In this document: positions 24,465-57,894 of the stretch, piece after piece
Layout: every line of letters starts with the position of its first letter
Numbering within the stretch: position 1 is the first letter of the stretch
IMG/VR virus record: IMGVR_UViG_3300030330_000562
Location: 22,434-86,433 of that record
Reading direction: 5' to 3' (one strand)
DNA length: 64,000 nt
Origin: a virus
Lineage: Duplodnaviria > Caudoviricetes
The notes under the pieces: model-generated
Database searches by the model: none
Told to the model about the DNA's origin: nothing
The model's input: the letters and a program-made list of their open reading frames with translations, nothing else
Made by a program: the position numbers and the translations under genes

Positions 24465-24794
24465 ATGGTAGTAGACTTTGACATTGATGGTGATGGAAAG
24501 GTTACAGAAGAAGAAGTAGCCATGAAAGAACGTATGCTTGAGATAGAGCTACGTGAAGAAAAGGCAGAATCACAAAAATTTATGGCTTGGGTAGCTATGG
24601 GTATGATGATTATTTTCACTATCTTCTTATTTACCCCATTAATGTCAGATTCTAGAGTAAATGCCCTTGCAGATTTGCTTGGGCTATTTTATATTGCACA
24701 AACTGGTGTAGTAGCAGCCTATATGGGCGCAACAGCTTATATGGCAGGTAAGCCAATGGGCAATAAAATGGCAATGAAAAAGGATATGAGATAA
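24465..24794 (+). CDS. Putative holin with an N-terminal EF-hand-like loop
   Basis: Two transmembrane segments, located near the endolysin gene, with DIDGDGKVTEEE at the N-terminus. Confidence 0.6.
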   Translation: MVVDFDIDGDGKVTEEEVAMKERMLEIELREEKAESQKFMAWVAMGMMIIFTIFLFTPLMSDSRVNALADLLGLFYIAQTGVVAAYMGATAYMAGKPMGNKMAMKKDMR

Positions 24795-25078
24795 TGGTGG
24801 AGGAAAAAAAATCAGGGTATCATCCTGGAGGTAGAGTAAGAGGAAGACCTGTGAGAAGGGGTAGACCTACTCAAGCTAGACCTACATCAAGAAGAAGACA
24901 ACAAGTAGCTTCTAAAATTAATGCACCTGGAATACGTGAAACTTTAGCTAAAAAAAGAACTATTAGATCTACAGGAAGACCTTCAACAAGAAGGAAACCT
25001 CCATCAAGAGCTAATCCAATAAGCAGATTTAATCAAGCTAGCAGAAGAGCTATGGGCAGATTTAACAGGAGAAAATAA
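24794..25078 (+). CDS. Arg-rich basic protein
   Basis: 94 aa, very R/P/S-rich, contains YHPGG near the N-terminus. Confidence 0.6.
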   Translation: MVEEKKSGYHPGGRVRGRPVRRGRPTQARPTSRRRQQVASKINAPGIRETLAKKRTIRSTGRPSTRRKPPSRANPISRFNQASRRAMGRFNRRK

Positions 25079-25545
25079 TGGGTTTTAGATTAAGTCAGAG
25101 ATCACTGGATAAATTAGAGGGTGTACACCCAGCTATGACTGGAGTTGTCGAAAGAGCTATTCAACTTACAGATGTAGACTTTGGAGTTACGCAGGGTATA
25201 CGTACTCTAGATGAGCAGAAGGCTAATGTAGCTGCAGGAAGATCTCAGACTATGAAATCTAAGCACTTATTACAGGATGATGGCTTCAGTCATGCGGTGG
25301 ATGTAGTAGCTTATGTAGGATCAGACGTATCCTGGGAGTTAAACCTCTACGATAACATCTGTGACGCATTTAAAAAGGCTGCAGAAGAAACTGAAGCAGC
25401 CGTAAAGTGGGGTGCTGCCTGGTCTGAGGGAGATATTAGGTCGTATCCCGGCACAGCAGAGGATGCAATGATGGCATACGTAGACTTACGTAGATCACAG
25501 GGACGTAGACCTTTCATTGATGCACCTCACTTTGAGTTAATGTAG
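25078..25545 (+). CDS. Endolysin, M15 family L-Ala-D-Glu peptidase
   Basis: LEGVHP, G.RT..EQ, SKHL...HAVD, D.PHFEL zinc-peptidase motifs. Confidence 0.9.
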   Translation: MGFRLSQRSLDKLEGVHPAMTGVVERAIQLTDVDFGVTQGIRTLDEQKANVAAGRSQTMKSKHLLQDDGFSHAVDVVAYVGSDVSWELNLYDNICDAFKKAAEETEAAVKWGAAWSEGDIRSYPGTAEDAMMAYVDLRRSQGRRPFIDAPHFELM

Positions 25546-25754
25546 TGAAAGAGTTTTTATTAGTTATAAGTATGTGGGGCAACACTGGTGAAGAGTGGGT
25601 ATACACAGGTAATCAGTATATTATGCAGGAACTGTTTACTGAGCAACAGTGTGAAATAATTGCTCAAAATGCAAACTGGGAAAAGTATGAAGAGAATGAA
25701 TACTTAGGTTTGCAGTTTGATTGTTTTAACAAAGCTGATAGGCAGTGGAAATAG
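25545..25754 (+). CDS. Small protein with an N-terminal hydrophobic segment and two Cys
   Basis: 69 aa. Shares an F.TEQ.C motif with 26986..27180. Confidence 0.6.
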   Translation: MKEFLLVISMWGNTGEEWVYTGNQYIMQELFTEQQCEIIAQNANWEKYEENEYLGLQFDCFNKADRQWK

Positions 25755-25755
25755 T

Positions 25756-26085: not shown

Positions 26086-26447
26086 TGAGATGGTTAATAT
26101 TCGTTTTATTCTTATCTGGGTGTGGTTTGAGTACTCTCCTTCCGCTAGGCGGATCAGGCGGGCCTACAGTAAATTCTAATGCACAGATAGGTGCAGAAAA
26201 TAGGCAGTCTGCAGTAAGTGTTGAGCAAAATACAACTGCAGGTAGAGATGTAATTTCAAAAGAAGTAGAGACAGGATCAGTGGGAAGCTTAGATATTATA
26301 AATACAAATATACCACCTTGGGTTATGTTACTCTTAATACTTGGTTGGCTACTACCAACACCTACAGAAATAGGCAGAGGTATAATGAATTTTATACTAA
26401 CTCTATTTGGTAGAAAAGATAATCCCAAGTATGAAAGATATAAGTAA
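26085..26447 (+). CDS. Putative spanin-like lipoprotein (lipobox plus C-terminal transmembrane segment)
   Basis: MRWLIFVLFLSG-C lipobox and WVMLLLILGWLL helix, which matches u-spanin topology. Confidence 0.65.
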   Translation: MRWLIFVLFLSGCGLSTLLPLGGSGGPTVNSNAQIGAENRQSAVSVEQNTTAGRDVISKEVETGSVGSLDIINTNIPPWVMLLLILGWLLPTPTEIGRGIMNFILTLFGRKDNPKYERYK

Positions 26448-26689
26448 TGAGAAATTACAAAAACGAGTATAAGAAGTATCAAGGTACATCTGTACAGAAA
26501 AAGAATAGGGCTTCACGTAATGCAGCTCGCAACACGTTGAAGAAAGCAGGAGTAGTAAAAAAAGGCGATGGCAAGGACGTAAACCATCGTAATGGTAATC
26601 CCAGAGACAATAGGTCAAAGAATCTATCAGTTACAACTAAACGTGCTAATAGGTCTTTTCCTAGAAATAGCAGAGCAGGAAAAAGATAA
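26447..26689 (+). CDS. HNH endonuclease-like protein
   Basis: KDVNHRNGNPRDN..KNL...NRS beta-beta-alpha-metal motif. Confidence 0.7.
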   Translation: MRNYKNEYKKYQGTSVQKKNRASRNAARNTLKKAGVVKKGDGKDVNHRNGNPRDNRSKNLSVTTKRANRSFPRNSRAGKR

Positions 26690-26985
26690 TGACGACTAAG
26701 CGTAAAAGCACAGGGATGAAGGGTCTGACTATTAAAGGGGGCCATAAACGTCCTACTAAAAAAGGCGCTGGTATGACAGCTAAAGGTGTAGCTGCGTATA
26801 GAAGAAAAAATCCTGGGTCTAAACTTAAGACTGCTGTTACTGAAAAAAAACCATCAAGTAAAGCTAGGGCTGCAAGACGTAAGTCTTTCTGTGCTAGATC
26901 CGCAGGACAAATGAAAAAATTTCCAAAAGCAGCTAAAGATCCTAATTCAAGATTAAGACAGGCTCGTAGAAGATGGCGTTGTTAG
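26689..26985 (+). CDS. Basic phage protein (DUF6321-like)
   Basis: G.T.KG...YRR.NPGS.L...RRKSFCAR...DPNSR...A.RRW.C. Confidence 0.7.
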   Translation: MTTKRKSTGMKGLTIKGGHKRPTKKGAGMTAKGVAAYRRKNPGSKLKTAVTEKKPSSKARAARRKSFCARSAGQMKKFPKAAKDPNSRLRQARRRWRC

Positions 26986-27180: not shown

Positions 27181-27272
27181 AGATGATAAGATGGTTATGG
27201 AGATATTTTAGAAGAATAGGTTGTGCAATTTTAAATAAAAATTGTGGACCTGAATGCAACTGTAAGGCGTAG
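27177..27272 (+). CDS. Micro-ORF, Cys-rich basic peptide (not in the ORF track)
   Basis: MKMIRWLWRYFRRIGCAILNKNCGPECNCKA (31 aa), ATGA overlap with the upstream gene. Confidence 0.5.
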   Translation: MKMIRWLWRYFRRIGCAILNKNCGPECNCKA

Positions 27273-27276
27273 TAAC

Positions 27277-27567
27277 ATGGCTTTAACAAAACAAAATAAA
27301 ACTAAAGTTAAGAAAGTAATTAAAGGTTTAAAGAAAGCCTCTAAATTACATGCAGGTCAAGCAAAGACTTTAAAAAAAGTAAGTGGAATGTCTAAAGGTG
27401 GTAGTACAGTCAACAAAGCAGGTAACTATACCAAGCCTGGGATGCGCAAGAGTTTATTCAACTCAATCAAGGCTGGAAGTAAGGGCGGCAATCCAGGCCA
27501 ATGGTCAGCCAGAAAAGCTCAGATGTTGGCTAAACAGTACAAAGCAAAAGGCGGAGGCTACAAGTAG
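27277..27567 (+). CDS. DUF5872-like protein, N-terminal half
   Basis: NYTKPGMRK..F..IKAG.KGG.PGQWSARKAQMLAKQYKAKGGGYK. Confidence 0.7.
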   Translation: MALTKQNKTKVKKVIKGLKKASKLHAGQAKTLKKVSGMSKGGSTVNKAGNYTKPGMRKSLFNSIKAGSKGGNPGQWSARKAQMLAKQYKAKGGGYK

Positions 27568-27803: not shown

Positions 27804-27805
27804 AC

Positions 27806-28111
27806 ATGGCGAAGAAACCAGATCCAAAAGTAGGAACAGGTAAAAAACCAAAAGGGTCTGGACGCAGACTATATACGGATGAGAACCCAAAAGATACGGT
27901 TCCAATTAAGTTTGCTACTATGGCTGATGCAAAAGCTACAGTAGCTAAAGTAAAAAGAATAAAAAAACCTTATGCAAGGAAGATTCAGATCTTGACAGTT
28001 GGTGAACAACGTGCTAAAGTAATGGGAAAGACAGCAATAGCAAATGTCTTTAAACAAGCTAAAGCAGACTTGCGAAGGAAACATAAAAAAGATGCCGTAT
28101 CTACAAAGTAG
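27806..28111 (+). CDS. Basic hypothetical phage protein
   Basis: 101 aa, Lys-rich, LYTDENPKDTV motif. Confidence 0.65.
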   Translation: MAKKPDPKVGTGKKPKGSGRRLYTDENPKDTVPIKFATMADAKATVAKVKRIKKPYARKIQILTVGEQRAKVMGKTAIANVFKQAKADLRRKHKKDAVSTK

Positions 28112-28772
28112 TATACCCTACTTCAAAGCATGGGTTCGTAGAGAGTATACAAAAAATTTAGAAGAATACCACGGAGAGTTTTTACATGCTATGGTAATTG
28201 GTGTAACCACCATGCCAAACAGGACTCTAAGTTTTCAAGTTATATTTACAGGTTGTGAGTCAGATTTTGATGACTCAGAAAATGTACATGGTGGTGCAAT
28301 GTGGGCAAGAATGCCTCTAACAGCACTCGTGGCAGATACCCCCCTAGAAGAATGGCCTACAGAGTTACCACCATATTTAGCACAACCCTGGGATTGTATG
28401 TCGCATACACACTCAGTATATAAATTAGAAAGAGCTACACCTGCTCCTTGGATAGCTAAGGTAGATGGTGAGTTCTATCCTGCAAAATATTACTTCACTG
28501 TAGACTACACAGATAACGAAGTAGCAGACGATCCTGCACAACATAAACAATCTCATGTTTTAGAATTGTTAGACGCAGGTGAATACACAGGTAACATGGT
28601 TGCGTTGCCCAATAATAGAGTGAGAGTAACTCACCCAGCTTGGTTTGAAACTGGACAAGGTGCTCCAGATTTTAGACCTAATCAAAATATTTATAACTCA
28701 AAAGAAAACGTAGACTATGTATGGGATACGCAACGAGTGTTTAACAATTTATATAGTGAGGAAGAACAATGA
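28092..28772 (+). CDS. Conserved hypothetical phage protein
   Basis: Likely start at MPYLQSSIP within track ORF 28044..28772. Globular and aromatic-rich. Confidence 0.7.
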   Translation: MPYLQSSIPYFKAWVRREYTKNLEEYHGEFLHAMVIGVTTMPNRTLSFQVIFTGCESDFDDSENVHGGAMWARMPLTALVADTPLEEWPTELPPYLAQPWDCMSHTHSVYKLERATPAPWIAKVDGEFYPAKYYFTVDYTDNEVADDPAQHKQSHVLELLDAGEYTGNMVALPNNRVRVTHPAWFETGQGAPDFRPNQNIYNSKENVDYVWDTQRVFNNLYSEEEQ

Positions 28773-29140
28773 AACCAGATTTTTTAGATATTGATAAAGA
28801 CGGTGATAAAAAAGAGTCTATGAAAAAAGCCTCTAAAGACCGTAAAAAGAAAAAAGGAATGGCTAAAGGTGGGGCTATGATGAAGAAAAAAGGTATGGCT
28901 AATGGTGGTGCTATGATGAAAAAGAAAGGCATGGCCAAAGGCGGAGCACAAATGAAAAAGAAGGGTATGGCTAACGGTGGAGCCATGATGAAGAAAAAGG
29001 GTATGGCTAACGGTGGAGCAATGAAAAAGAAAGCTTACGCTAAGGGTGGTAGAGTTGCCATGTATAACGTAGGTGGAATGGTTAAGTCTTCTGGTGAGCT
29101 TAATACAGGTATTGCTAGACCTAAAAATACCTACAAGTAA
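28769..29140 (+). CDS. Lys/Met/Gly-rich tandem-repeat protein
   Basis: About 5-6 repeats of KKKGMA(K/N)GGA(M/Q)M, with a DIDKDGD loop at the N-terminus. Confidence 0.8.
   Translation: MKPDFLDIDKDGDKKESMKKASKDRKKKKGMAKGGAMMKKKGMANGGAMMKKKGMAKGGAQMKKKGMANGGAMMKKKGMANGGAMKKKAYAKGGRVAMYNVGGMVKSSGELNTGIARPKNTYK
28848..29049 (+). repeat. 33-bp tandem repeat encoding an 11-aa unit
   Basis: Units differ mainly at third codon positions (e.g. ggtggggct, ggtggtgct, ggcggagca). Confidence 0.85.
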
Positions 29141-34914: not shown

Positions 34915-35117
34915 AACTAGTCGTGAACAATACTTTAAAACCTTTCGTAAATAATCCAGAGTTGTATAATCCATTTCTGGAAGAGATAGTTATTAGAATA
35001 GATAAAGTTCATAAACGTCTTGAGCAGCTTAACGATATAGAAGAAGTATATCGTGCTCAAGGTGAGATACGTATGCTCAGATCAATGTTAAGACTTAGGG
35101 ATGATATTAATGGCTAA
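34911..35117 (+). CDS. Small portal-adjacent protein
   Basis: 68 aa, YRAQGEIR.LR motif. Confidence 0.65.
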   Translation: MKLVVNNTLKPFVNNPELYNPFLEEIVIRIDKVHKRLEQLNDIEEVYRAQGEIRMLRSMLRLRDDING

Positions 35118-38100
35118 TACAGCAGAACAGATGCATGAAATAGAGCATTTTAATCAAAATACAGATTCACCTAAAAACATTCAAGAACAGATGGGAGTAC
35201 TTGGTTATACTCCAGAAACAACAGATAAAAATTCATCTCGTATTCTGCCTCCCAATATTAGCTACCCTGCTCCTTTTCTTTCAAAAGATTCATCTAACAT
35301 TAAAGGTTTAACTTACGGAGAACTTATTGTTGATAATATACTATTTTTAGATAATAATTATGAAAGTAGTATAGAAGGTATTTATAATAAATTTAGTGAA
35401 GATAAAAAAGGTTTTTTAAAAGCACTGGGTCAAAGTATTTATGACTCAGCCAAAAAATTTATGTATGAACCCTCAAAAATACCAGGAACTGATACATATA
35501 TTCCTGCAGAATTATCAAGAGGACAAAAAGTTGGAGAGTTTGTTTTTGATTCTTTAAAAGATATAAAAGATGCAGTTGTAAGACTTTCTTCAGAAGATCT
35601 TGATGCTAGATTACAAAATATGTTTAATGTTAATTCTAAAGATGCAACTAACGAACAAGTATCTCAAGCTAGAGAGTCTGTTATCGTGGATACACTTGCT
35701 GCACTTGAACTTATACCTGCACTTGGGCCTACTGCAAAAGTTACAAAAGAAACAATATCTGGTGCTGTAAAGCTTGCAGATAGAGTTACAGTAAATCCAA
35801 GTGCATTAGGCACTATTGGGGGAAATTTTGCGTTAAGAACTCCTGGAGAAACTGGTAATTTTAAAAGAGCTATAGATTTTTTTAAGAAAAAAGGTGGTAC
35901 TGATCCTAATAATTTTAAAGATATAAATAGAAAAATGTACAATAAATTTGGTTGGTACATTAATCCTTCTGATGGACAATGGCGTTATCAAATATCAGAT
36001 AAGAATTCTAAATTAGACCTTAAAAATTTTAAAGTACAAATTAGAAATTTAGGTCTCAATGAAACTAAAACTTTAAAACTATCTGATATTTTAACACATG
36101 ATCAATTATTTAAAAGATACCCTCATCTAAAAAATATTAATGTTCAATTTGAAAATAGATTTAAAAACCCAATTACTGATGGCTTACCATCTTTAGGATC
36201 TTTTTCTGGGGGTGATAATCTAATAAAAATAAATGTAAATAAAGATAGAGGAGTTGACGTATCTAATCTAGGAAATAGTGCAAGTTTTAAAGCTACTTTA
36301 TTTCATGAAATACAACATGCAATACAAGAGTATGAAGGTTTTATTCCAGGCACAAGTACTATAAATATACCTATTGAAGTAACAAAAAAACATTCAACTA
36401 TGTTAGCTAATAATCTTGATTTTAATAGAAATCAAAGAAAAAAAATAATTGAAGAAATTGAGGGTTCTGCTTTAGAACACAAAATTAATACTGATACTTT
36501 ATTAGCACATTTTTTACAAGATAGGTATCTTAAAACAGGGGTAGTGTTATTTACAAGTGAAGACGAAGTAATAAAAAAGTTTGCTGATGCTGTAGAAAAA
36601 GTAGGTTTACCTCCTAATATATTTGATGTTCCACCAGGATCTAGTAAAGCGTTTTTAGATTTAAGTGATGATTTAAATAGATTAAGAAATAGTTTTTTAG
36701 ATGATGTAAAAACAAAAAAAGCAATAGGGTATATTGAAGATTTACTTTATAGAGGATCAGGTGGAGAGCTAGAAAGCACTGGAGTAGAGGTAGAACTTGA
36801 TAGTGCTCAAAATAAATTACGTTATCCTTTAGATGTAGAACAAGATATAATTAAGGCAAGAAAACTTGAAGATTTTGCAGGTAGTTTAGATGAAACAGCA
36901 CAACAAGCTCTAATTCCAGAAGATCCTGGCTATTATAGAAGACAAACTTATAGAAAAGCTAATCCAGGCGTAGTTGATGTAAAAGTTGATATTGATTTGA
37001 CTAAATATAAATATCATAAACTAGATCAAATTCCACCTGCAAAAGATTTAAATGATCCAGAATATTTAGCTTATCAAAAATTATCAAAAGAAAGTAGTGC
37101 TGTAAAACGTAGAGATGCACGTACTAAATTTCTTTTAGATAATATTATTAAAGATAACTCTCAGTTAAAAAAAGTAAAAAACCTTAAAAATGGAGATACT
37201 TTTTCTTATACACTTCCAAATGGAAAAACTGTAAAAGTAAAATTTGATAAGGTAAAAACACAAAAAATTAAACGTAGTGATTTAAGTGAAACAGATGATA
37301 CACTTATTATTAAAGATACTAGACCTAATAAATATAAAGAGGAAATGAGTGATTTTATCATACCATATGCACGTCTTGAAATTATTGATAGTGATGCACC
37401 AGACTTAGAAATTACAATACCTAATCTTATAAAAAATAGTGATCTAGTTAAAGACGGTAAAAATTTTAACCTATTAGATTTAGGGGATACTAGACCCGAA
37501 GAAGGTGCTTTTAGTAAAATAAAAAGTTTATTTGGATTTGCCGAAGGAGGCGACACAGTGAAACCAGAACCAAAACCAGAAACCAGACCTTTTCCTGATG
37601 TTAAACCACAGGCAAAACCTGACTCGGATGAATACAGAGGTCGTACTTATGATATATACTCTGTAGAAATTGATGGAATAGAAACAAATGTTATTGAGTT
37701 TAAAGACGGTAAAAAAATATCTGCACCTCAAATACGGCAAATGTTTGAAGAATATAAAAGTGCTTCAGAATCAATTCCAGGAAAACAAACTTCACAAGAA
37801 ATATCAAAATTTCTTGAGGATAATAATCCTACGTATGATGAGTTTATCAGACACTTTACTGCTAAAAGAATAAATAAAGGTGGACTGATAGGAGATCAAA
37901 TGGAAATGGCTTTTATGAACGAAGGTGGCCTAACAGATGACGGTATGGATGTAGATCCAGTATCAGGTAATGATATACCTTCAGGTTCTATGGCAGAAGA
38001 GGTACGAGATGATATACCTGCACAGTTGTCCGATGGTGAATATGTAGTTCCTGCTGATGTCGTAAGATACTACGGTGTCAAGTTCTTTGAAGATCTTAGA

Positions 38101-39414
38101 GATCAAGCTAAAATGGGTTTAGCTCAAATGGAGGCCGATGGTCGTATAGGTGGTGAGCCTGTACCTGCAGGTGGTCCAATAAATACTGAAGAGCTATCTC
38201 CAGAAGAGATGCAAGCTATACAAGAAATGATGGGTATGTCTGAGGGTGGTTCTGTAAATGCTTTGAAAACACAACAAGAGCTTCTTGAACAACCAGCTAA
38301 TAAAGCTGTAGGTAATCCACAAATGATGTATGGTGGTGGTCAAGTTAGAGGCTATCAAAACTCAAGTCTTGTTGCACAAGCAGAGTCTAATTTATTAGGT
38401 GGACAATCTCTATCTCAGGTTGAACAACAGATGCTATCTGCAGCAGGAAATAAACCTTATACAGGGCAACCTTTAGGTTTTTCCCTTTTTGGAGGTTCTA
38501 ACACTGGTGTAAAACAAGATCAATCTCAAACTTCTGCTTTTACTCCTATATTTTTATATAATAAAGCTGGTCAAAATAAATATGTAAGTAGTGAAAAAGA
38601 AAAAGCAAAGGCAATAGCTGATGGTTATACTATGACACTAGAGCAGTACAATATTTATAGATCACAATCTGGTGGTTCTGGTGGTAGTGGTGGTAGTAGT
38701 TCTACAGTAACAACAGGTGATGAAGATAAAGAAATAAAATCTTGGGGTCAAGCTGTAAATTGGAATAATGTAGATGATATTAAACAATTTGTAGCTCAGG
38801 CTGAAAGAGGTAATCTATCTGGTTCTGGTAGATTTTTAAGAGGTGCAGGTTTTGCAATTGCTGGATTACCAGGTGCAATGTTAGCAGGAGCATTTCAAAT
38901 TGGTAAGGGTTTAAATAGTATATACGATATGGAAGCTGCAAAAATTATTGCAGAGGCAAAAGGACATACCGAGTTAGCTACTGAAATACAAGAGGGTATA
39001 GATACTTACTTAAAAACTGCAGGTGATATTGCAAACTTTTTATATAAACCTGAAAGTAAAGCTGTTATGAGAAGAGTTGATGGGGTGTTTGCAGGAACTG
39101 GTTATGAAGATGTTAACTCATGGGCAGCAGGTACTAGAAGAACAATAGTTTCAGATTATAAAAAAGGCAAAGAATTTGATAGTAAAAAATCTAAACAAGC
39201 AGGAGATAAAAGAAAAAGAAAAGCTATGAAAGCTTTTAATAAATTACAGAAAAATAAAGATAGTTATATAGCAAGCTCATCTACTCCAGGTGAAACAGCA
39301 GATAATATATCTCAATTAGAAAAATCACTTTCAGCATCAGCACAAAATCCTTCTGGTACAATAAGTTTAAACAAAGGTGGATTGATGCAAAAAAAGAAAA
39401 AGGCAAAGAAATAA
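35101..39414 (+). CDS. Large polyvalent virion protein: LPD23-like domain, zincin HExxH, and a conserved LSDGEYVVPADVV domain
   Basis: GWY.NP.DGQWRYQISD, TLFHEIQHAIQ, DDIPAQLSDGEYVVPADVV.YYG, and six phi-x-x-GG motifs. Confidence 0.75.
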   Translation: MILMANTAEQMHEIEHFNQNTDSPKNIQEQMGVLGYTPETTDKNSSRILPPNISYPAPFLSKDSSNIKGLTYGELIVDNILFLDNNYESSIEGIYNKFSEDKKGFLKALGQSIYDSAKKFMYEPSKIPGTDTYIPAELSRGQKVGEFVFDSLKDIKDAVVRLSSEDLDARLQNMFNVNSKDATNEQVSQARESVIVDTLAALELIPALGPTAKVTKETISGAVKLADRVTVNPSALGTIGGNFALRTPGETGNFKRAIDFFKKKGGTDPNNFKDINRKMYNKFGWYINPSDGQWRYQISDKNSKLDLKNFKVQIRNLGLNETKTLKLSDILTHDQLFKRYPHLKNINVQFENRFKNPITDGLPSLGSFSGGDNLIKINVNKDRGVDVSNLGNSASFKATLFHEIQHAIQEYEGFIPGTSTINIPIEVTKKHSTMLANNLDFNRNQRKKIIEEIEGSALEHKINTDTLLAHFLQDRYLKTGVVLFTSEDEVIKKFADAVEKVGLPPNIFDVPPGSSKAFLDLSDDLNRLRNSFLDDVKTKKAIGYIEDLLYRGSGGELESTGVEVELDSAQNKLRYPLDVEQDIIKARKLEDFAGSLDETAQQALIPEDPGYYRRQTYRKANPGVVDVKVDIDLTKYKYHKLDQIPPAKDLNDPEYLAYQKLSKESSAVKRRDARTKFLLDNIIKDNSQLKKVKNLKNGDTFSYTLPNGKTVKVKFDKVKTQKIKRSDLSETDDTLIIKDTRPNKYKEEMSDFIIPYARLEIIDSDAPDLEITIPNLIKNSDLVKDGKNFNLLDLGDTRPEEGAFSKIKSLFGFAEGGDTVKPEPKPETRPFPDVKPQAKPDSDEYRGRTYDIYSVEIDGIETNVIEFKDGKKISAPQIRQMFEEYKSASESIPGKQTSQEISKFLEDNNPTYDEFIRHFTAKRINKGGLIGDQMEMAFMNEGGLTDDGMDVDPVSGNDIPSGSMAEEVRDDIPAQLSDGEYVVPADVVRYYGVKFFEDLRDQAKMGLAQMEADGRIGGEPVPAGGPINTEELSPEEMQAIQEMMGMSEGGSVNALKTQQELLEQPANKAVGNPQMMYGGGQVRGYQNSSLVAQAESNLLGGQSLSQVEQQMLSAAGNKPYTGQPLGFSLFGGSNTGVKQDQSQTSAFTPIFLYNKAGQNKYVSSEKEKAKAIADGYTMTLEQYNIYRSQSGGSGGSGGSSSTVTTGDEDKEIKSWGQAVNWNNVDDIKQFVAQAERGNLSGSGRFLRGAGFAIAGLPGAMLAGAFQIGKGLNSIYDMEAAKIIAEAKGHTELATEIQEGIDTYLKTAGDIANFLYKPESKAVMRRVDGVFAGTGYEDVNSWAAGTRRTIVSDYKKGKEFDSKKSKQAGDKRKRKAMKAFNKLQKNKDSYIASSSTPGETADNISQLEKSLSASAQNPSGTISLNKGGLMQKKKKAKK

Positions 39415-39461: not shown

Positions 39462-40361
39462 ATGCCTGAATTAGCAGAAGTAGAAACACCAAAAACAGCA
39501 GGGTTTGTTGATAGAGGTTACAACTACGAAAAGAAGCGTAAGCAAATGGAAACGGAAGAAGAGGAGATTCGTAAACTTGAAGCTGAACAACGTGGAGAAA
39601 CAGACGAAGAACAGCAACCAGAAAAAGAAACTTCCAAAAAGAAAGAGACCGATACAGAAGCTAAAGAAGAAACGCTATCTGCTGAAGAAAAATCGTTTAA
39701 AAAGCGTTATGGCGATCTAAGACGCCATATGCAAGAAAAAGAAAAGGAATGGGAAGATAAGTTTAAAGCCTTTGAGAAACGATTAGAAAAAGAATCTATT
39801 GTACCACCTAAGTCTGATGAAGATATAGAAGAGTGGTCTAAAGAATATCCAGACGTAGCAGGTATAGTAGAAACTATTGCTGCTAAAAAAGCTCAAGAGA
39901 TGTTTAATAAAGCTGAAGCTCGTATGCAAGAGTTTGATAAAATTCAAACAGAAGCTGAAAGAACTAAGGCTGAAAGTATCATACGTAAATCACACGAAGA
40001 CTTTGATGATCTACGTGCATCTGATGAATTTCATAACTGGGTTGAAGAACAACCTAAATGGGTACAAGATGCACTGTACGAAAACTCAGATGATCCAGCC
40101 TCTGTAGTTCGTGTTATAGATCTATATAAAGTAGATAAAGGTCTAACTAAGAGTGCAAAGAAAGCAAAAGCTAAAGATGCAGCCTCTACAGTCACAAAAC
40201 GTAGTAAAACACAAGTAGATGTAGAAGATGCAAATGACGTAATTCGTGAGTCAGAAGTTGCTAAAATGTCCGATAAGGAATTTGAAGAAAAGTCTGACGA
40301 TATTAACAAAGCTATCCGTTCGGGTAAATTTGTTTACGATGTATCTGGCAAAGCTAGATAA
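39462..40361 (+). CDS. Capsid scaffolding protein
   Basis: Acidic coiled coil between the portal region and MCP, with KKRYGDLRR and a C-terminal I.KA.R.G motif. Confidence 0.8.
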   Translation: MPELAEVETPKTAGFVDRGYNYEKKRKQMETEEEEIRKLEAEQRGETDEEQQPEKETSKKKETDTEAKEETLSAEEKSFKKRYGDLRRHMQEKEKEWEDKFKAFEKRLEKESIVPPKSDEDIEEWSKEYPDVAGIVETIAAKKAQEMFNKAEARMQEFDKIQTEAERTKAESIIRKSHEDFDDLRASDEFHNWVEEQPKWVQDALYENSDDPASVVRVIDLYKVDKGLTKSAKKAKAKDAASTVTKRSKTQVDVEDANDVIRESEVAKMSDKEFEEKSDDINKAIRSGKFVYDVSGKAR

Positions 40362-50551: not shown

Positions 50552-51463
50552 ATGGCTACGACTAACTTTAAAATAAAAAATGGATTGTTATCTAAAAGAT
50601 ATTTGCAAAGTAAATCTGCTGCTACCGTTATAAGTGCAGGGATGTCGTCTCTTATTTTGCAAACTACTGGTAATAATAGTAGTTGGGTACAAAAAACAAC
50701 AGATATTTCTACATATGGTGGGGCTACCGTAAGACCAGTGTATCACTACGATATGATCTCAAGTGTATTTACAGCAGACCTGCAATTAGATAATATTGTT
50801 GTAGGTAATGAAACTTATAATTTTAACAGTAATGCTACAGGTTGGCAAACTACCACTACAGACACAGCTATAGGAAGTTATGATTCTGCAAGTTTTACTA
50901 ATGTTTCAACAGGTTCAACTTCAGGAAGAGTTCTTAGAGACTCAGGAGGAACTCCTTCTAATGGTACAGGAGCTACCACAGATGCAGATGGTAATGGGGC
51001 TGGTGTTGGTTTTTATTTATATTTTGAAACTACAAACCCTGCTAACAGTTCAGCTTATGACTTTCTTCTTAGAGGACCAGAAGTAACATTACCAAGTAAC
51101 CCTACTTGGACTTGGTTTGAAAATAGAACAGGTACAGGTATGGGTAATCTTAATGCCTATCTTTTTGTGTCTGCAGGTATTGCGACTATAGATTTAAGTC
51201 AAGGAAGTTATTTTACACTTTCGTTAGGATCAGCAACAACAGCATCTTTTTCAAATCCACCTGCTACAGGTAAAGCCTACTCTTTTGCTTTAGAAGTAAC
51301 AACTTCAGGAGATTATGCAATTACATGGCCTACATCTATAAAGTGGGAGGGTGGCAGTGCTCCTGCTAATACAGCATCAGGAGCAACAGATTTGTACACA
51401 TTTATAACAGTAGATGGTGGCACTACATACTTCGGTAAAAAAGCTTTAACAGGAGTAGCATAA
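50552..51463 (+). CDS. Tail-associated protein: scaffold with a MAM-like beta-sandwich insert
   Basis: TPS.GTG....GFYLYFETT...LLRGP insert and the same ITWP.SIKWEGG.AP...DGGTTY C-terminus. Confidence 0.7.
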   Translation: MATTNFKIKNGLLSKRYLQSKSAATVISAGMSSLILQTTGNNSSWVQKTTDISTYGGATVRPVYHYDMISSVFTADLQLDNIVVGNETYNFNSNATGWQTTTTDTAIGSYDSASFTNVSTGSTSGRVLRDSGGTPSNGTGATTDADGNGAGVGFYLYFETTNPANSSAYDFLLRGPEVTLPSNPTWTWFENRTGTGMGNLNAYLFVSAGIATIDLSQGSYFTLSLGSATTASFSNPPATGKAYSFALEVTTSGDYAITWPTSIKWEGGSAPANTASGATDLYTFITVDGGTTYFGKKALTGVA

Positions 51464-53394
51464 TGTCACTTAGTAAAATGATAATGGGTCAGTCTGGAAA
51501 TCAAGGTTCAGGTGCAAGTTTAGATGTAGATGATGTTTATAGCACGTTTTTGTATGAGGGAACCAATAACCCAAAAACAATTACCAATGGCATTGACCTT
51601 AGTAACGAAGGTGGATTGGTTTGGAGTAAATCAAGAAGTCACTCAAATGGACATGCACTTGTAGATACTGAGAGAGGCGTAACAAAATATTTAATATCTG
51701 AAAGTACAGACGCAGAAACTACGGATGCATTAACATTAACTTCCTTTAATTCTGATGGTTATACTCTTGGTAGTGACAGTAACTCTGATAGATTTAATAG
51801 AGATAATAGAGAATACGTCTCTTGGACATTTCGCAAAGCCCCTAAGTTTTTTGACATTGTGACGTATACTGGGGATGGCAGTTCCTATCAAACGATCTCT
51901 CATAATTTAGGCACTACTGTTGGTTTTATTATTATCAAAAACCGTAGCCGTAGCGGAGATAATTGGACTTGTTTTCATAGGTCATTAGATGCTAACAAAA
52001 CGTTATATCTTAATACAACTGCTGCTGTTTCAAATACCGCAGCAATAATAAACGTCTCGTCAACAAGTTTTGACGTTGAAAATGGAACATTAACCAACCA
52101 AAATGGGGATAGTTATGTTGCGTATATATTCGCACATAATGACGGTGATGGAGAGTTTGGCCCATCGGGTGACCAAGATATTATTAAATGTGGAAGTTAT
52201 ACTGGGAATGGTTCTACTGATGGCCCTGAGATAAATGTAGGTTTTGAGCCTCAATTTGTAATGATAAAAAGGGCAACTGGTGGTTCGGCAGGTTGGTTTG
52301 TACTCGACAATATGAGGGGAATAACAGCTAATGATAATGATGCTTATTTAGAATGGAATACTTCTAGCCAAGAATTTGATACGTCTGAGTGGTTTGATTT
52401 AAGACCTACTGGATGGAAAAACAGAAGAGATTGGACATTAACAAACCATTCTGGCTCTGAGTACATATACATGGTAATCAGACGTGGCTCACTAGCTGCA
52501 CCTACTAGTTCTAGTCAAGTGTTTGAAGTAGACAACGCAGGTTCTACAGGTGACGGTGTTGATCCTAAATTTAGAAGTGGGTTTCCTGTAGATTTTGCAT
52601 TAAGAAAAGATACAGGGTCAGGTAATTGGGAGGCACTTACACGTTTACTACAAGGAACTTCTTTACGTCCAAATGATACTGATGCAGAGGATAGTGGATC
52701 AGGTGGTGATCAATTTGATTACATGAATGGTTACAATACAGGAACAAACACAGACTCTTCTTTATACAGTTGGATGTGGAAACGTGCTCCTAAATACTTT
52801 GATGTGGTTACTTACACAGGTGCATCAGGTGCTCAAACAATAACTCATAATCTAGGTGTAGTACCTGAAATGATTTGGCTTAAAAAACGATCTGAAGTAT
52901 CAGCGACTAATGGAGGATGGGTTGTTTATCATGGGACAACTAGTAATCTAATATTAAATGAAAATTTTAGTTCTGGTTTTGCTGTGAACAATTCAGTTAA
53001 TCATAGCACCATAAGTGCTACAACTTTTGAAGTAGCAAATGGAAATGCTGATGTTAATGATGTTGGTGAAGATCATGTAGCTTACCTCTTTGCATCAGTT
53101 GCAGGTGTGTCAAAGATAGGCTCAGTAGCACATTCAGGAAGTTCTACTGATGTAGATTGTGGATTTTCTAATGGGTCTAAGTTTGTTTTACTAAAACGTA
53201 CAGATGATACAAGTAATTGGAGACTGTTTGATAGCGATAGAGGAATAGTCTCAGGCAATGACCCTCATACATTTGTAAATTTAAGTAGTGCTCAAAATAC
53301 GTCTACTGATTTAATAGACCCTCTTTCATCAGGTTTTCAGATTACAGATGATTTAGATGATGGTACTTATCTCTTTTATGCTATTGCAGCATAA
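51463..53394 (+). CDS. Tail fiber/receptor-binding protein with repeated beta domains
   Basis: 643 aa with repeats FD.VTYTG....TI.HNLG..P..I..K.R and G.YTGNG...I..GF.P..V.IKR. Confidence 0.75.
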   Translation: MSLSKMIMGQSGNQGSGASLDVDDVYSTFLYEGTNNPKTITNGIDLSNEGGLVWSKSRSHSNGHALVDTERGVTKYLISESTDAETTDALTLTSFNSDGYTLGSDSNSDRFNRDNREYVSWTFRKAPKFFDIVTYTGDGSSYQTISHNLGTTVGFIIIKNRSRSGDNWTCFHRSLDANKTLYLNTTAAVSNTAAIINVSSTSFDVENGTLTNQNGDSYVAYIFAHNDGDGEFGPSGDQDIIKCGSYTGNGSTDGPEINVGFEPQFVMIKRATGGSAGWFVLDNMRGITANDNDAYLEWNTSSQEFDTSEWFDLRPTGWKNRRDWTLTNHSGSEYIYMVIRRGSLAAPTSSSQVFEVDNAGSTGDGVDPKFRSGFPVDFALRKDTGSGNWEALTRLLQGTSLRPNDTDAEDSGSGGDQFDYMNGYNTGTNTDSSLYSWMWKRAPKYFDVVTYTGASGAQTITHNLGVVPEMIWLKKRSEVSATNGGWVVYHGTTSNLILNENFSSGFAVNNSVNHSTISATTFEVANGNADVNDVGEDHVAYLFASVAGVSKIGSVAHSGSSTDVDCGFSNGSKFVLLKRTDDTSNWRLFDSDRGIVSGNDPHTFVNLSSAQNTSTDLIDPLSSGFQITDDLDDGTYLFYAIAA

Positions 53395-54209: not shown

Positions 54210-54220
54210 GGAAATAAAGT

Positions 54221-57200
54221 ATGGTGCAAGCAACAGATGAGCAACTTTTAGAGGCTGCTAGAAGTGGAGACTACTCTGCTATAATGAACACTCCTGATCG
54301 TTATGGTCAAATACCTGCTGAACATACTGAAGCAAATCGAAAGTTAAAGGAGCTTCAGTATGCAGGTTCTCAATTACTTAAAAAAGAAAATGCTATGCAG
54401 GGTGTTAAAACTGGTGATTACAGTGGTGCTACTCGTGATGCTCAGATGTTGTATGCTCCTCCTGGGGGAAAGGTAGACTATGACAGAACTCTTGGGTCAG
54501 GCTCTGCGGATACAACTAGAGATGCACAAGGAGATCTTCCAGGCACATCATCTAGAAAAGGTTACGCTGTTCTAGATCAAGCGAAAGATGCTGATGGTAA
54601 TCAGTACTTAGCTGTGTCAGGTAAAAACTCTAGCTTTATTGTAAAGATAGATGCTGATGGTAACCATGAAAGAGTAGAAACTACAAGCAGAAAAAAAGGT
54701 AAAAGATATAAAAACGAAAGTGTAGTCACTAGAGCTTTTGACAGATTTAAAGAAGGTTTGTCTGTTCCTAGTGATGATGATGATACTGTAGATTCAGATC
54801 CTATTGATGATGATAATATTTTAGATGATTCTTCAGATGATCCTGTAAGTGGGTCTGTAGAGGATACAATCGAAAACATTGATACAACATCATCTCCTAT
54901 AGACGATAGTGTAGCAGGAGAAAATTTTACTTCTACAGTACCTTCTACAGAAATAGTAGATATAGGAGCAGATGAAGTAGCTCCAATAGACCCTAATGTT
55001 TCTCAAACAGTAGTTCAAGATGTTGCACCAGTTACATATCAAGATCCAGTAACTCAAGTTAATAATAATTTTGGTACTGGAAGCACCGCTAGTTCTACTG
55101 CAGATATGACTACTTCAATTACATCTCCTACAACAGATTATGTTGCAGGTAGTGTAGCTCCTCAAGCTGCTGTTAGCGGTACTTTTAGCCAACCAACTTC
55201 AACTGCTGGTTTGTCTGCAGTACCAAATCAAATAACTTACAAAACACAGTATGCAGGGACTCAAGGGGCAGTGCCAGAAAATTTAATAACTAATGCTCCT
55301 GGTACAGGTCAAAGTATTACCACAGGCTACCAACAAATTCCTTATGAAAATAAATTTACTGGTCAAAAAATGACGGTAACAGAATTTAATGGTCAACCTA
55401 TTACATATGTGCCACCAGGTTTTACAAAAGTAGTTCAGTCTACGACAGGTATGGCAGAGGGCGGTGATATGAATAGAGATACTGTTTTAGCTAAAAAGTT
55501 TTTAGGTTTTAAAGGATCACCTAGTGAATTAGAAGGATTTCTAGCATCTAATCCAGGTGCTGCAGCTCGTATGGGTAAATACAGATCTGCTATGACTAAT
55601 AGAAATTTAAATGTAGTTCCTAATCAAGCTAATATAGCAGGACAACCTCATAGACTCGCTTATGTAAATCCACAAGAAGAAAAACTTCTTAAAGCTGCAG
55701 GAGGATCTGGACAACCTTCTTTTGGTGGTATACCAACTTATTTTTCTCTGTCACCTGACCCTAATAATCCACCAGAAGTAGGGTCTGTTACAACTGATCC
55801 AACTACAGGATATAAGTACACTTGGAATGGAACTTCTTATGATATTACAGATGCAGAAGGTAATACCGCAGGAACAACTGGAGGATTTGGTAACACAGGA
55901 GATCAAGGTTCAACAGGTCAACCTGCAGGTATAAATCAAGACCAATTTCAAGCTATGGGACAAAATCTCGTAGGTCAAACTATGCAACCAATACAAGCTG
56001 GGGTTGCTGGTATTATACCAACTTCAGGTGATTTTATACCTGTAGATGCAGGTCAAACTGTTCCTCAAGCTCCTTTTGCTGAGGCCGCTACTGCAGACAC
56101 GGTTTCCGTTGCAGGTCAGCCTATTATACCCACAGTATCTACAGCAGATACAACTGCTACAACAGAGGATGTAAAAAAAGAGACAGATGCTTTAACAGCT
56201 CAAACATTAAGTGATTTGACAGATACGGTTGAAGGTCAAACTGACTATACAACTAATTTATCAGATTTAACTTCTGCATCTGGTGAATATAAATCTGTTC
56301 AAGAAGTTGCAGGAGAAGATGGAGTTCCAGTGAGAACTTTAGATACAACTACAGGGGGAGTTGGTGAACTAGTTGACGGATCAACTGTAGATCAACAAAG
56401 AGTTGGAGAAGCTTTTGGTACTGGTGAAGTACAAGCTGCTTCTGTACAAGATGAGTTAGCAGGTCTTATGCAGCAGTTTGAAGGTGGTAATACACCTGCT
56501 TGGGCTGCAGGGTCTATGAGAAGGGCCACTGCAATAATGGCACAAAGAGGTCTTGGCGCTTCATCTATGGCAGGTCAGGCTATTATACAAGCTGCTATGG
56601 AAGCTGCCCTACCTATTGCACAAATAGATGCAGGTAACAAGCAGCAAATGGCTTTGTTCAAAGCAGAGCAAAGAGCTAAATTTTTAAATATAGAGTTTGA
56701 TCAGTCATTTCAAGCTAAAGTTATAAATGCAGCTAAAATATCTGAAATAGCTAATATGAATTTTAATGCAGAGCAACAAATTGTATTAGAAAACTCAAAA
56801 GCTGCAAATACAATGGAACTTGCTAATCTTAATAATAAGCAAGCATTGCTTATGTCTGAAGCAGCCGCTTTAGCTAATCTAGAGATGGCTAGCTTAAATA
56901 ATTTACAACAGGCTGAAGTTCAAAATGCTCAAAACTTTTTACAGATGGACATGGCTAATTTAAGTAATGAGCAACAAACTGAAATATTTAAAACTCAACA
57001 AAATATTTCTGCTATATTTAATGATGCAGCCGCTGAAAATGCAGCATCTCAATTTAATGCTACAAGTGAAAATCAGACAAATCAATTTTTTGCTAATCTG
57101 TCGTCTATAGTATCACAGTTTAATGCGTCTCAAGCTAATGCTATGGATCAATTTAATATAAATAATATTAACTCTCTTAGAAAATTTAATTCTGAAATGC

Positions 57201-57574
57201 AACAGCAAAGAGATTTATTTAATGCACAAAATGGGTTAGTTATAGCTCAAGCTAATGCTAAATGGAGACAGAATATTGCAACTTTAAATACTGCTGCTCA
57301 AAACGAAAGTAATATGGATTTTGCTAAAACTATAAATGCTTTATCAGCTAAGAATCTAGATGAGATATGGCAAAGAGAACGTGATATTATGAGTAATGCT
57401 TTTATTTCTTCTGAATCTGCTATGGATAGAGCACTTCAAATTATTCTTGGAGATAAATCTCTAGAATCTATAAGATTGCAATTAGAAACTAAAAAAGATA
57501 TAGCTGATACAGAACTTTTTAGTAGGTTTTTATTTGGCACTGGAGATGATAGCTTTAGTTTATTTGGGCAATAG
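54221..57574 (+). CDS. Large internal virion protein
   Basis: 1117 aa with low-complexity D/T/Q-rich stretches, MAEGG, an HRLAYVNPQE..LL..AGGSG domain, and N/Q/A-rich C-terminal repeats. Confidence 0.7.
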   Translation: MVQATDEQLLEAARSGDYSAIMNTPDRYGQIPAEHTEANRKLKELQYAGSQLLKKENAMQGVKTGDYSGATRDAQMLYAPPGGKVDYDRTLGSGSADTTRDAQGDLPGTSSRKGYAVLDQAKDADGNQYLAVSGKNSSFIVKIDADGNHERVETTSRKKGKRYKNESVVTRAFDRFKEGLSVPSDDDDTVDSDPIDDDNILDDSSDDPVSGSVEDTIENIDTTSSPIDDSVAGENFTSTVPSTEIVDIGADEVAPIDPNVSQTVVQDVAPVTYQDPVTQVNNNFGTGSTASSTADMTTSITSPTTDYVAGSVAPQAAVSGTFSQPTSTAGLSAVPNQITYKTQYAGTQGAVPENLITNAPGTGQSITTGYQQIPYENKFTGQKMTVTEFNGQPITYVPPGFTKVVQSTTGMAEGGDMNRDTVLAKKFLGFKGSPSELEGFLASNPGAAARMGKYRSAMTNRNLNVVPNQANIAGQPHRLAYVNPQEEKLLKAAGGSGQPSFGGIPTYFSLSPDPNNPPEVGSVTTDPTTGYKYTWNGTSYDITDAEGNTAGTTGGFGNTGDQGSTGQPAGINQDQFQAMGQNLVGQTMQPIQAGVAGIIPTSGDFIPVDAGQTVPQAPFAEAATADTVSVAGQPIIPTVSTADTTATTEDVKKETDALTAQTLSDLTDTVEGQTDYTTNLSDLTSASGEYKSVQEVAGEDGVPVRTLDTTTGGVGELVDGSTVDQQRVGEAFGTGEVQAASVQDELAGLMQQFEGGNTPAWAAGSMRRATAIMAQRGLGASSMAGQAIIQAAMEAALPIAQIDAGNKQQMALFKAEQRAKFLNIEFDQSFQAKVINAAKISEIANMNFNAEQQIVLENSKAANTMELANLNNKQALLMSEAAALANLEMASLNNLQQAEVQNAQNFLQMDMANLSNEQQTEIFKTQQNISAIFNDAAAENAASQFNATSENQTNQFFANLSSIVSQFNASQANAMDQFNINNINSLRKFNSEMQQQRDLFNAQNGLVIAQANAKWRQNIATLNTAAQNESNMDFAKTINALSAKNLDEIWQRERDIMSNAFISSESAMDRALQIILGDKSLESIRLQLETKKDIADTELFSRFLFGTGDDSFSLFGQ

Positions 57575-57612
57575 TAGCCAAGTCATAAAATATTAATTAA
57601 GGGTATATAGGT

Positions 57613-57894
57613 ATGAGTTTTAATTATAGAAAAGCATATATAGATTTAGACGAAGCTATTAAAGCAGGTGGTTTAACTGCAGTAAAAGCTTCTAAAAGTA
57701 TACGAGAGTCAAGGCAAGGATTAATGAGTTCTAGTACAGATAAAATAGAAGAGATGATAGAAGATGATTATTCTGATGATATTCGTATATTAAAAAAGTT
57801 TAATGATGTTAAAGAGTCTAATAAAAGGTTAATAGAAAGAATTAAAACTGAAATAGAAGTAGAGGACGAAGGGGATAAAGATGAAGATAACTGA
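57613..57894 (+). CDS. Small virion-cluster protein (copy B)
   Basis: 93 aa, in the position where copy A has a lysozyme-like C-terminus. Confidence 0.6.
   Translation: MSFNYRKAYIDLDEAIKAGGLTAVKASKSIRESRQGLMSSSTDKIEEMIEDDYSDDIRILKKFNDVKESNKRLIERIKTEIEVEDEGDKDEDN

What the first reader, a model, noticed from the sequence alone, without database searches (positions are those of the whole stretch)
24794..57894. Genome-wide hydrophobic-x-x-Gly-Gly motif marking domain boundaries in late proteins: a candidate sorting or cleavage system
Seen: YHPGG (24794); MSKGG (27277); MAKGG/MANGG five times plus YAKGG and YNVGG (28769); FAEGG, INKGG, MNEGG, MSEGG, MYGGG and LNKGG (35101); MAEGG (54221); IKAGG (57613). 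In the 1437-aa protein the motifs fall at visible switches of composition or domain, and one directly precedes the LSDGEYVVPADVV domain. Recalled knowledge: lambda tape measure gpH has FATGG/YATGG around a GEFV segment and is C-terminally processed, and di-Gly ends are cleaved by ubiquitin-type and C39 proteases. Inference: a shared signal that targets diverse cargo into the head and/or lets a protease release it, here used by a podovirus lacking a tape measure. No JAB, NlpC or C39 protease was recognised. Candidate processors are the HExxH zincin, the LSDGE domain itself, or the unknown 28092 protein.
Basis: partly seen in the sequence, partly recalled or inferred. Interest (0 to 1): 0.8.

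Follow-up and report, generated by a model that had tools for sequence, protein, structure and literature searches.

The report
Tape-measure-type glycine joints in a podovirus
The hydrophobic-x-x-Gly-Gly motif is not a genome-wide signal: it is the short joint of an uncatalogued tape-measure-type module, found here in a tail-less-ruler marine podovirus, where it marks the points at which protein cassettes are joined and swapped, and possibly cut.

Summary
All the listed pentapeptides are present. The generic pattern is not enriched genome-wide. Without the 123-aa repeat protein and the 1437-aa protein, late proteins hold 24 copies against 23.5 expected.

In 79 related viral loci a sharper motif, (G/Q/R)-[FMY]-[AN]-[EKQ]-G-G-x-[VM], occurs only in those two protein groups. 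A third carrier is the 1117-aa protein.

In the 1437-aa post-portal protein the motif brackets a very conserved segment (DDIPAQLSxGEYVVPADVVRYYG). This segment defines a family of over 3,000 clusters. The same composite lies near the C-terminus of annotated tape measure proteins, next to where lambda gpH and T5 pb2 are cut. No Pfam model covers it.

The virus record holds a second, variant copy of the gene. Nucleotide similarity between the copies starts at FAEGG, stops at MSEGG and resumes after the C-terminal KGG. So the motifs are cassette joints (shown). Cleavage there is plausible but untested. No phage protease was found, and the zincin occurs in only 7 of 147 homologs.

The scan found this module before in giant tape measures of other genomes. 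The podovirus setting and the Lys-rich repeat proteins are new.

The parts
35101..39414 (+). 1437-aa post-portal protein. It has a variable N-terminal cargo (weak LPD23 hit, HEIQH zincin) and a conserved C-terminal half of about 520 aa that carries a tape-measure-type module.
   Evidence: The gene lies between the SU10-type portal (32818-34914) and the scaffold-like gene (39462-40361).
37537..37551 (+). FAEGG813, the joint that ends the zincin cargo. It is followed by a Pro-rich KPEPKPETRP linker.
   Evidence: Nucleotide similarity to the variant gene copy starts at 37536.
37870..37884 (+). INKGG924, the junction copy between cargo and module. This copy occurs only in homologs that have an N-terminal extension.
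   Evidence: position -54 relative to the GEYV anchor in 110 homologs.
37891..38178 (+). Core module, residues 931-1026: QMEMAF-MNEGG-...DPVSGN...EVRDDIPAQLSDGEYVVPADVVRYYGVKFFEDL...GRIGGEPVPAGGP.
   Evidence: 42 invariant columns in alignment A1. 3,127 cluster representatives match at E<=1e-3. Weak tblastn hits fall almost only in tape measure genes. The AF2 model gives it low pLDDT and no secondary structure before helix 71-98.
38236..38250 (+). MSEGG1046, the joint after the module.
   Evidence: Position +69 in 144 homologs. Similarity to the variant copy ends at 38256.
38323..38340 (+). MMYGGG1075-1080, a further copy in the Q-rich spacer.
   Evidence: Positions +98 to +130 in 117 homologs.
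39367..39411 (+). C-terminal LNKGG-LM-QKKKKAKK tail.
   Evidence: 65 of 147 homologs end in hydrophobic-x-x-GG plus a basic tail. Similarity to the variant copy resumes at 39399. It resembles lambda gpH's C-terminal MRDGGLFSGGGR.
28769..29140 (+). 123-aa Lys-rich protein made of tandem KKKGMA[KN]GGAMM units (array 28847-29032), then YAKGG and YNVGG.
   Evidence: Seven orthologs in related loci hold 29 motif copies against 0.3 expected, and further small Lys-rich motif proteins occur there.
55451..55465 (+). MAEGG411 in the 1117-aa protein (54221-57574), in a variable linker after TYVPPGF.
   Evidence: A motif copy lies within about 10 alignment columns in CRP-9 gp40 (FKDGG408) and about 20-25 columns away in CRP-2 gp49 (YNKGG402, plus 3 more copies).

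Best explanation
The pentapeptide is the glycine joint (consensus [FMY]-[AN]-x-G-G-x-[VM]) of a conserved but uncatalogued junction module that tape measure proteins carry near their distal (C-terminal) end. The module runs: joint, then 15-38 aa, then [DS][DS]IPAxLSxGE[FY]V..A..V, then a second joint. In this HMO-2011-type podovirus, which has no tape measure, the module heads the conserved half of the protein encoded after the portal. Shorter relatives begin with the module. Longer ones, like this one, carry variable enzyme cassettes upstream (a zincin here, a cell-wall hydrolase in CRP-2). I read the protein as the podoviral counterpart of a tape measure's distal end: an internal pilot or ejection protein. 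Its extended, very conserved strand would dock on a conserved partner in the portal-tail channel, and its cargo would be delivered with the DNA. The joints delimit autonomous cassettes, and they are the points where cassettes are added, lost and exchanged. Shown: the motif's positional conservation; its restriction to two or three protein classes; the similarity to tape measures; and the coincidence of mosaic breakpoints and of natural N-termini with the joints. Inferred: virion location, docking partner, ejection, and any cutting at the joints.
For: (1) Relative to the GEYV anchor, motif copies sit at fixed positions (-54, -38, +44, +69, about +98, and the C-terminus) in 147 homologs. The -54 copy exists only when cargo is present. 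(2) The family has 3,127 representatives at 50% clustering. The module sits at the N-terminus in 40 of 147 and follows variable cargo in the rest. (3) A 57-aa core query at permissive E-values hit 325 phage records. 47 of the 60 rows listed are annotated tape measure genes. (4) phi1026b gp14, Paws, Vibrio LV6 and GardenSalsa tape measures show the pattern joint - [DS]IPAxLSxGE[FY]V - joint. A profile search with Z=4e6 gives E=5.5e-4 for GardenSalsa (two copies) and 1.6e-3 for phi1026b. (5) In phi1026b and in lambda the module follows the Pfam Tape_meas_lam_C domain by about 35 aa, so lambda's FATGG-GEFV-YATGG is the positional equivalent. (6) A within-record natural experiment: a second gene copy (G000:C1:248-3910) has unrelated cargo. 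Nucleotide similarity runs only over 34845-35133, 37536-38256 and 39399 onward. It therefore starts 1 nt from FAEGG, ends 6 nt after MSEGG and resumes 18 nt after LNKGG. (7) 11 of 35 cargo-zone joints are followed by [RK]P..[RK]P (0.6 expected), and 16 homologs start with that same string. (8) AF2 gives the conserved strand no fold of its own, as expected for a partner-bound segment. (9) CRP-2's cargo is a Hydrolase_2 cell-wall hydrolase (E=1.3e-11), which is typical of ejected proteins.
Against: No structure, proteomics or genetics exists for any family member, and no solved structure matches by sequence or fold. Lambda gpH and T5 pb2 are not detected by the profile, so their link rests on motif and position only. 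The PHROG 'tape measure' hit (E=1.7e-5) may reflect annotation of similar podoviral proteins. A pure joint or docking role does not explain the small Lys-rich proteins built almost entirely of joints. Breakpoints at block edges are partly expected wherever conserved and variable segments alternate.
Confidence: 0.6

Rival explanations
1. The joints are proteolytic processing sites. The post-portal protein would be a polyprotein cut at or beside the joints by a host protease or by an autocatalytic activity of the module. That would release the cargo enzymes and the poly-Lys tail. The 123-aa protein would be cut into 12-aa cationic peptides.
For: T5 pb2 is cut inside its copy of the module. One mapping places the cut after R1127, directly before AEGG (PMC10038345; sequence). 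The older mapping places it at V1148+-1, within GEHGTEVV (quoted in PMC11937520). Lambda gpH* at 78-79 kDa implies a cut around residues 710-732, just before FATGG733 (PMC12617516 states that the site and the protease are unknown). Shorter relatives start 3-5 residues after the point where the junction copy ends in longer ones, and some start with the exact string that follows FAEGG. Polyvalent proteins are predicted to be processed (PMC5512222).
Against: No protease domain was found in any late protein. The coat and scaffold are P22/SU10-like, a type that normally lacks a maturation protease. The zincin occurs in only 7 of 147 homologs. Lambda's C-terminal copy MRDGGLF is intact in virions (PMC10721106). 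The T5 site is disputed and would lie before the A, not after GG. The natural N-termini are equally well explained by cassette swapping.
Confidence: 0.3
2. The motif would be a shared sorting or cargo-loading peptide that targets diverse proteins into the procapsid by binding scaffold, portal or capsid. This would be analogous to the T4 capsid-targeting sequences or to encapsulin cargo-loading peptides.
For: The motif occurs in three unrelated protein classes of the late region. The copies are multiple, lie in disordered regions, and include a C-terminal one, as cargo-loading peptides do. That last comparison is from memory and was not tested.
Against: The same motif and module occur in tape measures, which are tail proteins and are never in the head. 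The motif is absent from the other large late proteins. No binding test was possible.
Confidence: 0.08
3. The motif is a chance or low-complexity artefact of Gly-rich late proteins.
For: Outside two or three proteins the generic pattern is at expectation. YHPGG, IKAGG and MSKGG are not supported.
Against: The motif is conserved in position across 147 homologs and in tape measures. It occurs 175 times against 8.9 expected in orthologs. Mosaic breakpoints fall at the motifs.
Confidence: 0.02

Closest known systems
Lambda tape measure gpH, cut into gpH* and gpHC, and lambda-type tape measures such as Burkholderia phi1026b gp14
   Same: The order of elements is the same: joint (FATGG/LATGG), then the GE[FY]V strand, then a second joint (YATGG/FAAGG), then a C-terminal hydrophobic-x-x-GGL[FM]. 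phi1026b shares DSIPAQLSNGEFVV with this family. The module lies in the fragment that stays at the exit end of the channel.
   Different: Here the gene follows the portal in a podovirus with no tail tube to measure. The module is N-terminal, or follows cargo, rather than sitting 110-125 aa from the C-terminus. The linker between the joint and the strand is longer (38 aa). Lambda itself is not detected statistically.
T5 tape measure pb2, cut into pb2* and pb2C
   Same: It has AEGG followed by GEHGTEVVTP, and the experimentally mapped maturation cut lies inside this stretch.
   Different: The similarity is at motif level only. The cut site is disputed (R1127 or V1148). pb2 is a siphovirus ruler.
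Polyvalent proteins of phages and conjugative elements (Iyer et al. 2017, PMC5512222)
   Same: A long protein with variable enzyme domains (zincin, weak LPD23 hit). It is predicted to be packaged and injected, and processing is proposed.
   Different: That paper defines no glycine joint or tape-measure-type anchor module. Here the anchor is this module, not MuF.
Giant tape measures with GG-flanked cassette joints, noted earlier in this scan on other genomes (e1-5738971, e1-5761547, e1-5761561, e1-5373700)
   Same: The same module (…PAMLTPGEFV-type) sits at cargo borders, and cassettes are swapped at the joints.
   Different: Those are tail rulers of long-tailed phages. This one is a podoviral post-portal protein, and it comes with small Lys-rich joint-repeat proteins.
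Podoviral internal or ejection proteins (T7 gp14-16, P22 gp7/16/20)
   Same: An inferred role as an internal protein that leaves through the tail, sometimes carrying a cell-wall hydrolase.
   Different: No sequence or fold similarity was found. The comparison is by role only.

Membership tests
Tape-measure C-terminal junction module (lambda gpHC type; no Pfam model) | The composite: joint [FMYL]AxGG, then [DS][DS]IPAxLSxGE[FY]V, then a second joint | tested here: met
   Window residues 939-1050. 147 homologs. The same composite is in four annotated tape measures and in lambda.
Tape-measure C-terminal junction module (lambda gpHC type; no Pfam model) | Statistically significant sequence similarity to annotated tape measure proteins | tested here: inconclusive
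   Module profile with Z=4e6: GardenSalsa 5.5e-4, phi1026b 1.6e-3, Vibrio LV6 0.4, Paws 17, lambda and T5 undetected. Annotation enrichment among weak tblastn hits is overwhelming.
Tape measure protein (the whole protein as a tail ruler) | Gene lies between tail chaperones and tail-tip genes of a long-tailed phage, with length proportional to the tail | tested here: not met
   The gene lies between an SU10-type portal and the scaffold and capsid genes. The adaptor is SU10-type. The relatives are podoviruses.
Tape measure protein (the whole protein as a tail ruler) | Proteolytic maturation next to the module | not testable with these tools
   This needs virion mass spectrometry. The library holds no proteomics for HMO-2011-type phages.
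Polyvalent proteins (Iyer et al. 2017) | Several unrelated effector domains in one polypeptide, variable between relatives | tested here: met
   Cargo differs between the window, its own variant copy, CRP-9, CRP-2 (Hydrolase_2) and HMO-2011 (none).
Polyvalent proteins (Iyer et al. 2017) | A recognised LPD or MPTase-PolyVal domain above the Pfam threshold | tested here: not met
   LPD23 scores 16.3-16.7 bits against a cut-off of 27. An HEIQH motif is present, but no Pfam peptidase model matches.
Double-glycine leader with a C39 peptidase, or adenovirus-type (M/I/L)xGG with a cysteine protease | A cognate cysteine protease gene, and the hydrophobic residue at P4 of a GG cut site | tested here: not met
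   No protease domain in the late proteins. The hydrophobic residue is 3 residues before the first G (P5), and the copies are internal.
Capsid-targeting or cargo-loading peptides (T4 CTS, encapsulin CLP) | The peptide is necessary and sufficient for encapsidation, and binds the shell or scaffold | not testable with these tools
   No multimer prediction or experiment was available. The resemblance is recalled from memory only.

The most novel reading that the evidence does not exclude
The joints are true processing signals shared by tape measures and podoviral pilot proteins. A host-encoded or module-intrinsic activity would cut at or next to [FMY]-A-x-G-G. That would release enzyme cargo, and 12-aa poly-Lys peptides from the repeat proteins, inside the particle or on ejection. 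It would also identify the determinant of the lambda gpH-to-gpH* cut, whose site and protease are still unknown after 50 years.
Probability: 0.25. Interest if true: 0.8.

Novelty: new variant of a known kind. Interest (0 to 1): 0.55.

Why it matters
HMO-2011-type podoviruses are among the most abundant marine phages, and their post-portal protein is annotated only as hypothetical. Three things follow from the finding that it carries the distal junction module of tape measures.

- It links podoviral internal proteins to tail rulers in evolution.
- It gives a sequence handle (joint, strand, joint) for finding injected cargo cassettes in metagenomes. This family alone has more than 3,000 clusters.
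- It makes an old question testable in laboratory phages: where and how lambda gpH and T5 pb2 are cut.

It also corrects the idea of a genome-wide sorting code.

Tried and rejected
- A genome-wide signal was rejected by shuffle tests and by the ortholog-group scan.
- The zincin as general processor was rejected: 7 of 147 homologs carry it.
- A search for any protease among late proteins with Pfam and PHROGs found none.
- A profile search of PDB sequences found nothing.
- The AF2 model has mean pLDDT 60.9, with the module unstructured. Foldseek against the PDB gave no match at E<=0.001.
- The ESM Atlas returned only viral hypotheticals. The nearest named cluster, crAss_CARG1 at 0.81, is below the reliable range.
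- hhalign of A1 against gpH failed inside the tool.
- tblastn of the 123-aa protein against cultured phages gave no match, possibly because of low-complexity masking.
- No small motif-repeat ORF lies within the 6 kb upstream stretches fetched for CRP-9, HMO-2011, CRP-2 and CRP-1. In the window that gene lies about 9 kb upstream.
- I considered an S24/S26 (LexA or signal-peptidase) Ser-Lys reading of S-x-x-x-x-L-x-x-G-[DE]. I dropped it because the Ser position is Asp in this family and absent in lambda and T5.
- An FG-nucleoporin-like gel reading of the Q-rich, GFSF-containing spacer is only an idea and was not tested.
- No virion proteomics for HMO-2011-type phages was found in the library.
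Full report
**What the window is.** It is a marine podovirus of the HMO-2011 / Roseobacter CRP type. tblastn and megablast hit only those phages. The late genes on the + strand include an SU10-type portal (32818-34914), a 1437-aa protein (35101-39414), a scaffold-like protein, a P22-type coat, an SU10-type adaptor and tail genes. The virus record is 86,433 bases and holds about 1.5 genome lengths of two variants.

**Checking the observation.** All listed pentapeptides exist. Composition-preserving shuffles show that the generic hydrophobic-x-x-GG pattern is only mildly enriched in late proteins: 39 copies against 27.4 expected, p=0.016. The enrichment vanishes when the 123-aa repeat protein and the 1437-aa protein are removed: 24 against 23.5.

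I fetched 79 related IMG/VR loci and grouped their ORFs by similarity to the window's proteins. A narrower motif, [FMYLIW][ANS][EKQND]GG, gave these counts:
- post-portal protein group: 175 against 8.9 expected;
- repeat-protein group: 29 against 0.3;
- portal, terminase, scaffold (0), coat (0), adaptor and tail groups: at expectation.

Several further small Lys-rich ORFs in those loci carry 2-4 copies. The MAEGG of the 1117-aa protein has a motif copy within about 10 alignment columns in CRP-9 and about 20-25 columns away in CRP-2. MSKGG is probably the true N-terminus of a 59-aa protein and is not conserved. The motif is therefore real but confined to two or three protein classes.

**Anatomy in the post-portal protein.** Only residues ~922-1103 are conserved in cultured relatives. 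A full HMMER scan with that stretch found 3,127 cluster representatives at E<=1e-3. In 40 of 147 inspected homologs the stretch is N-terminal, as in HMO-2011 gp49 and CRP-1 gp49. In the others it follows variable cargo.

Relative to the [ST][DE]GE[YF]V anchor, motif copies sit at fixed positions:
- -54, present only when cargo is present;
- -38;
- +44;
- +69;
- about +98;
- just before a C-terminal poly-Lys tail.

The pooled logo is (G/Q/R)-[FMY]-[NA]-[EK]-G-G-[LAV]-[VM]. Between -38 and +44 lies an extremely conserved segment, with 42 invariant columns. AF2 leaves this segment without secondary structure and with low confidence up to a helix. That is what one expects of a strand that folds only on a partner.

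**Link to tape measures.**
- A 57-aa core query at permissive E-values hit 325 phage records. Apart from HMO-2011-type phages, the listed hits lie almost entirely in annotated tape measure genes: 47 of 60 rows.
- Four fetched tape measures show the pattern joint - [DS]IPAxLSxGE[FY]V - joint. In three it lies 110-125 aa from the C-terminus; in GardenSalsa it lies internally and twice.
- A 96-column profile of the module, with a conservative Z of 4 million, scores GardenSalsa at E=5.5e-4 and phi1026b gp14 at 1.6e-3. Reversed decoys score at noise.
- Lambda gpH and T5 pb2 are not detected by that profile. However, in both phi1026b and lambda the module follows the Pfam Tape_meas_lam_C domain by about 35 residues. 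Both lambda and T5 also show the joint plus a GE strand.
- No Pfam model covers the module.

The literature says that lambda gpH is cut in its Gly-rich C-terminal region, with both site and protease unknown (PMC12617516). My mass arithmetic puts the cut near residues 710-732, just before FATGG733. T5 pb2 is reported cut after R1127, directly before AEGG (PMC10038345). An older mapping places the cut at V1148, inside the GE strand (PMC11937520). Lambda residues 818-849, which include MRDGGLF, are seen intact in virions (PMC10721106).

**Cassette joints, shown directly.** The record's second copy of the gene (G000:C1:248-3910) has unrelated cargo. Nucleotide similarity between the two copies exists only at three places:
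- 34845-35133, covering the upstream region and the first 11 codons;
- 37536-38256, which starts 1 nt from FAEGG and ends 6 nt after MSEGG;
- 39399 onward, which starts 18 nt after LNKGG.

By my rough arithmetic, three of four breakpoints falling within 20 nt of one of eight motif copies has a chance of about 1e-3.

Across homologs, 11 of 35 cargo-zone joints are followed by [RK]P..[RK]P, against 0.6 expected. Sixteen homologs begin with that same string. One homolog begins with essentially the sequence that follows FAEGG in the window. Cargo differs widely between relatives. CRP-2 carries a Hydrolase_2 cell-wall hydrolase that ends in YAKGG.

**Interpretation.** The best-supported reading is that the pentapeptide is the glycine joint of a tape-measure-type junction module. 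The 1437-aa protein would then be the podoviral counterpart of a ruler's distal end: an internal pilot protein with swappable cargo, anchored through an extended conserved strand.

Cleavage at the joints is a serious rival. The T5 and lambda precedents support it, and so do the natural N-termini that fall just after joints. Against it:
- no protease was found;
- the zincin occurs in only 7 of 147 homologs;
- one lambda copy is uncut.

A head-sorting code is unlikely, because the same module is found in tail proteins. The Lys-rich repeat proteins remain unexplained. Their repeat unit mirrors the main protein's C-terminal KGG-LM-KKKK tail.

**Relation to earlier scan notes.** After I reached the tape-measure link, a look-up showed that the scan had already described the same GG-flanked module at cargo borders of giant tape measures in other genomes. 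It had also noted an 870-aa portal-adjacent gene with a KKGGLASKKKKK tail in another podophage. Those notes agree with this report. What is new here is the podovirus context, the size of the family, the within-record mosaic, and the joint-repeat proteins.

Noticed in passing
window 5314-6600 versus 62763-64000; G000:C1 (86,433 bases): The record is about 1.5 genome lengths with a period of about 57.4 kb. It joins two variants that are about 90% identical in these flanks. It is probably an assembly concatemer of co-occurring strains rather than a terminal repeat.
   Followed up: partly
G000:C1:248-3910 (locus L094): A second copy of the post-portal gene (open frame 1221 aa). Its N-terminal cargo and its central and C-terminal regions are entirely different from the window's copy, while the module block is near-identical.
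   Followed up: yes
window 27244-27567: The ORF probably starts at the internal ATG (27388). The PHROG 17747 match (E=2.6e-33) covers residues 49-107 only, which gives a 59-aa protein ending in KAQMLAKQYKAKGGGYK.
   Followed up: partly
window 35101-35133 and homolog N-termini: N-terminal leaders of cargo-bearing homologs (MANTAEQMEMFGYTAEG-like) resemble the module's own leader (QMEMAF-MxEGG). It looks as if cargo was inserted within a duplicated leader.
   Followed up: partly
related loci L027, L055, L073, L019, L023, L054: Small Lys-rich proteins with 2-4 joint copies. Some have CxxC pairs and a shared ...CGASNPAERP... ending. They form a diverse, unannotated small-protein family upstream of the terminase genes.
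   Followed up: no
window 28044-28772: The 242-aa protein matches PHROG 3704, which is labelled 'ferredoxin' (E=4.4e-27), but it has no Pfam hit. The label looks doubtful.
   Followed up: no
window 26447-26985: An HNH_3 endonuclease (80 aa, E=4.7e-7) and a DUF6321 protein (98 aa) lie among the small late genes.
   Followed up: no
window 51463-53394 and 48203-50176: One tail-region protein has DUF7483 (E=1.4e-92). Another has weak beta-propeller (SGL) similarity.
   Followed up: no
window 37843-38415: In the ESM Atlas, the nearest named cluster to the module is the crAssphage cargo protein 1 domain (score 0.81, below the reliable range). This is an untested lead to another class of ejected cargo proteins.
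   Followed up: no
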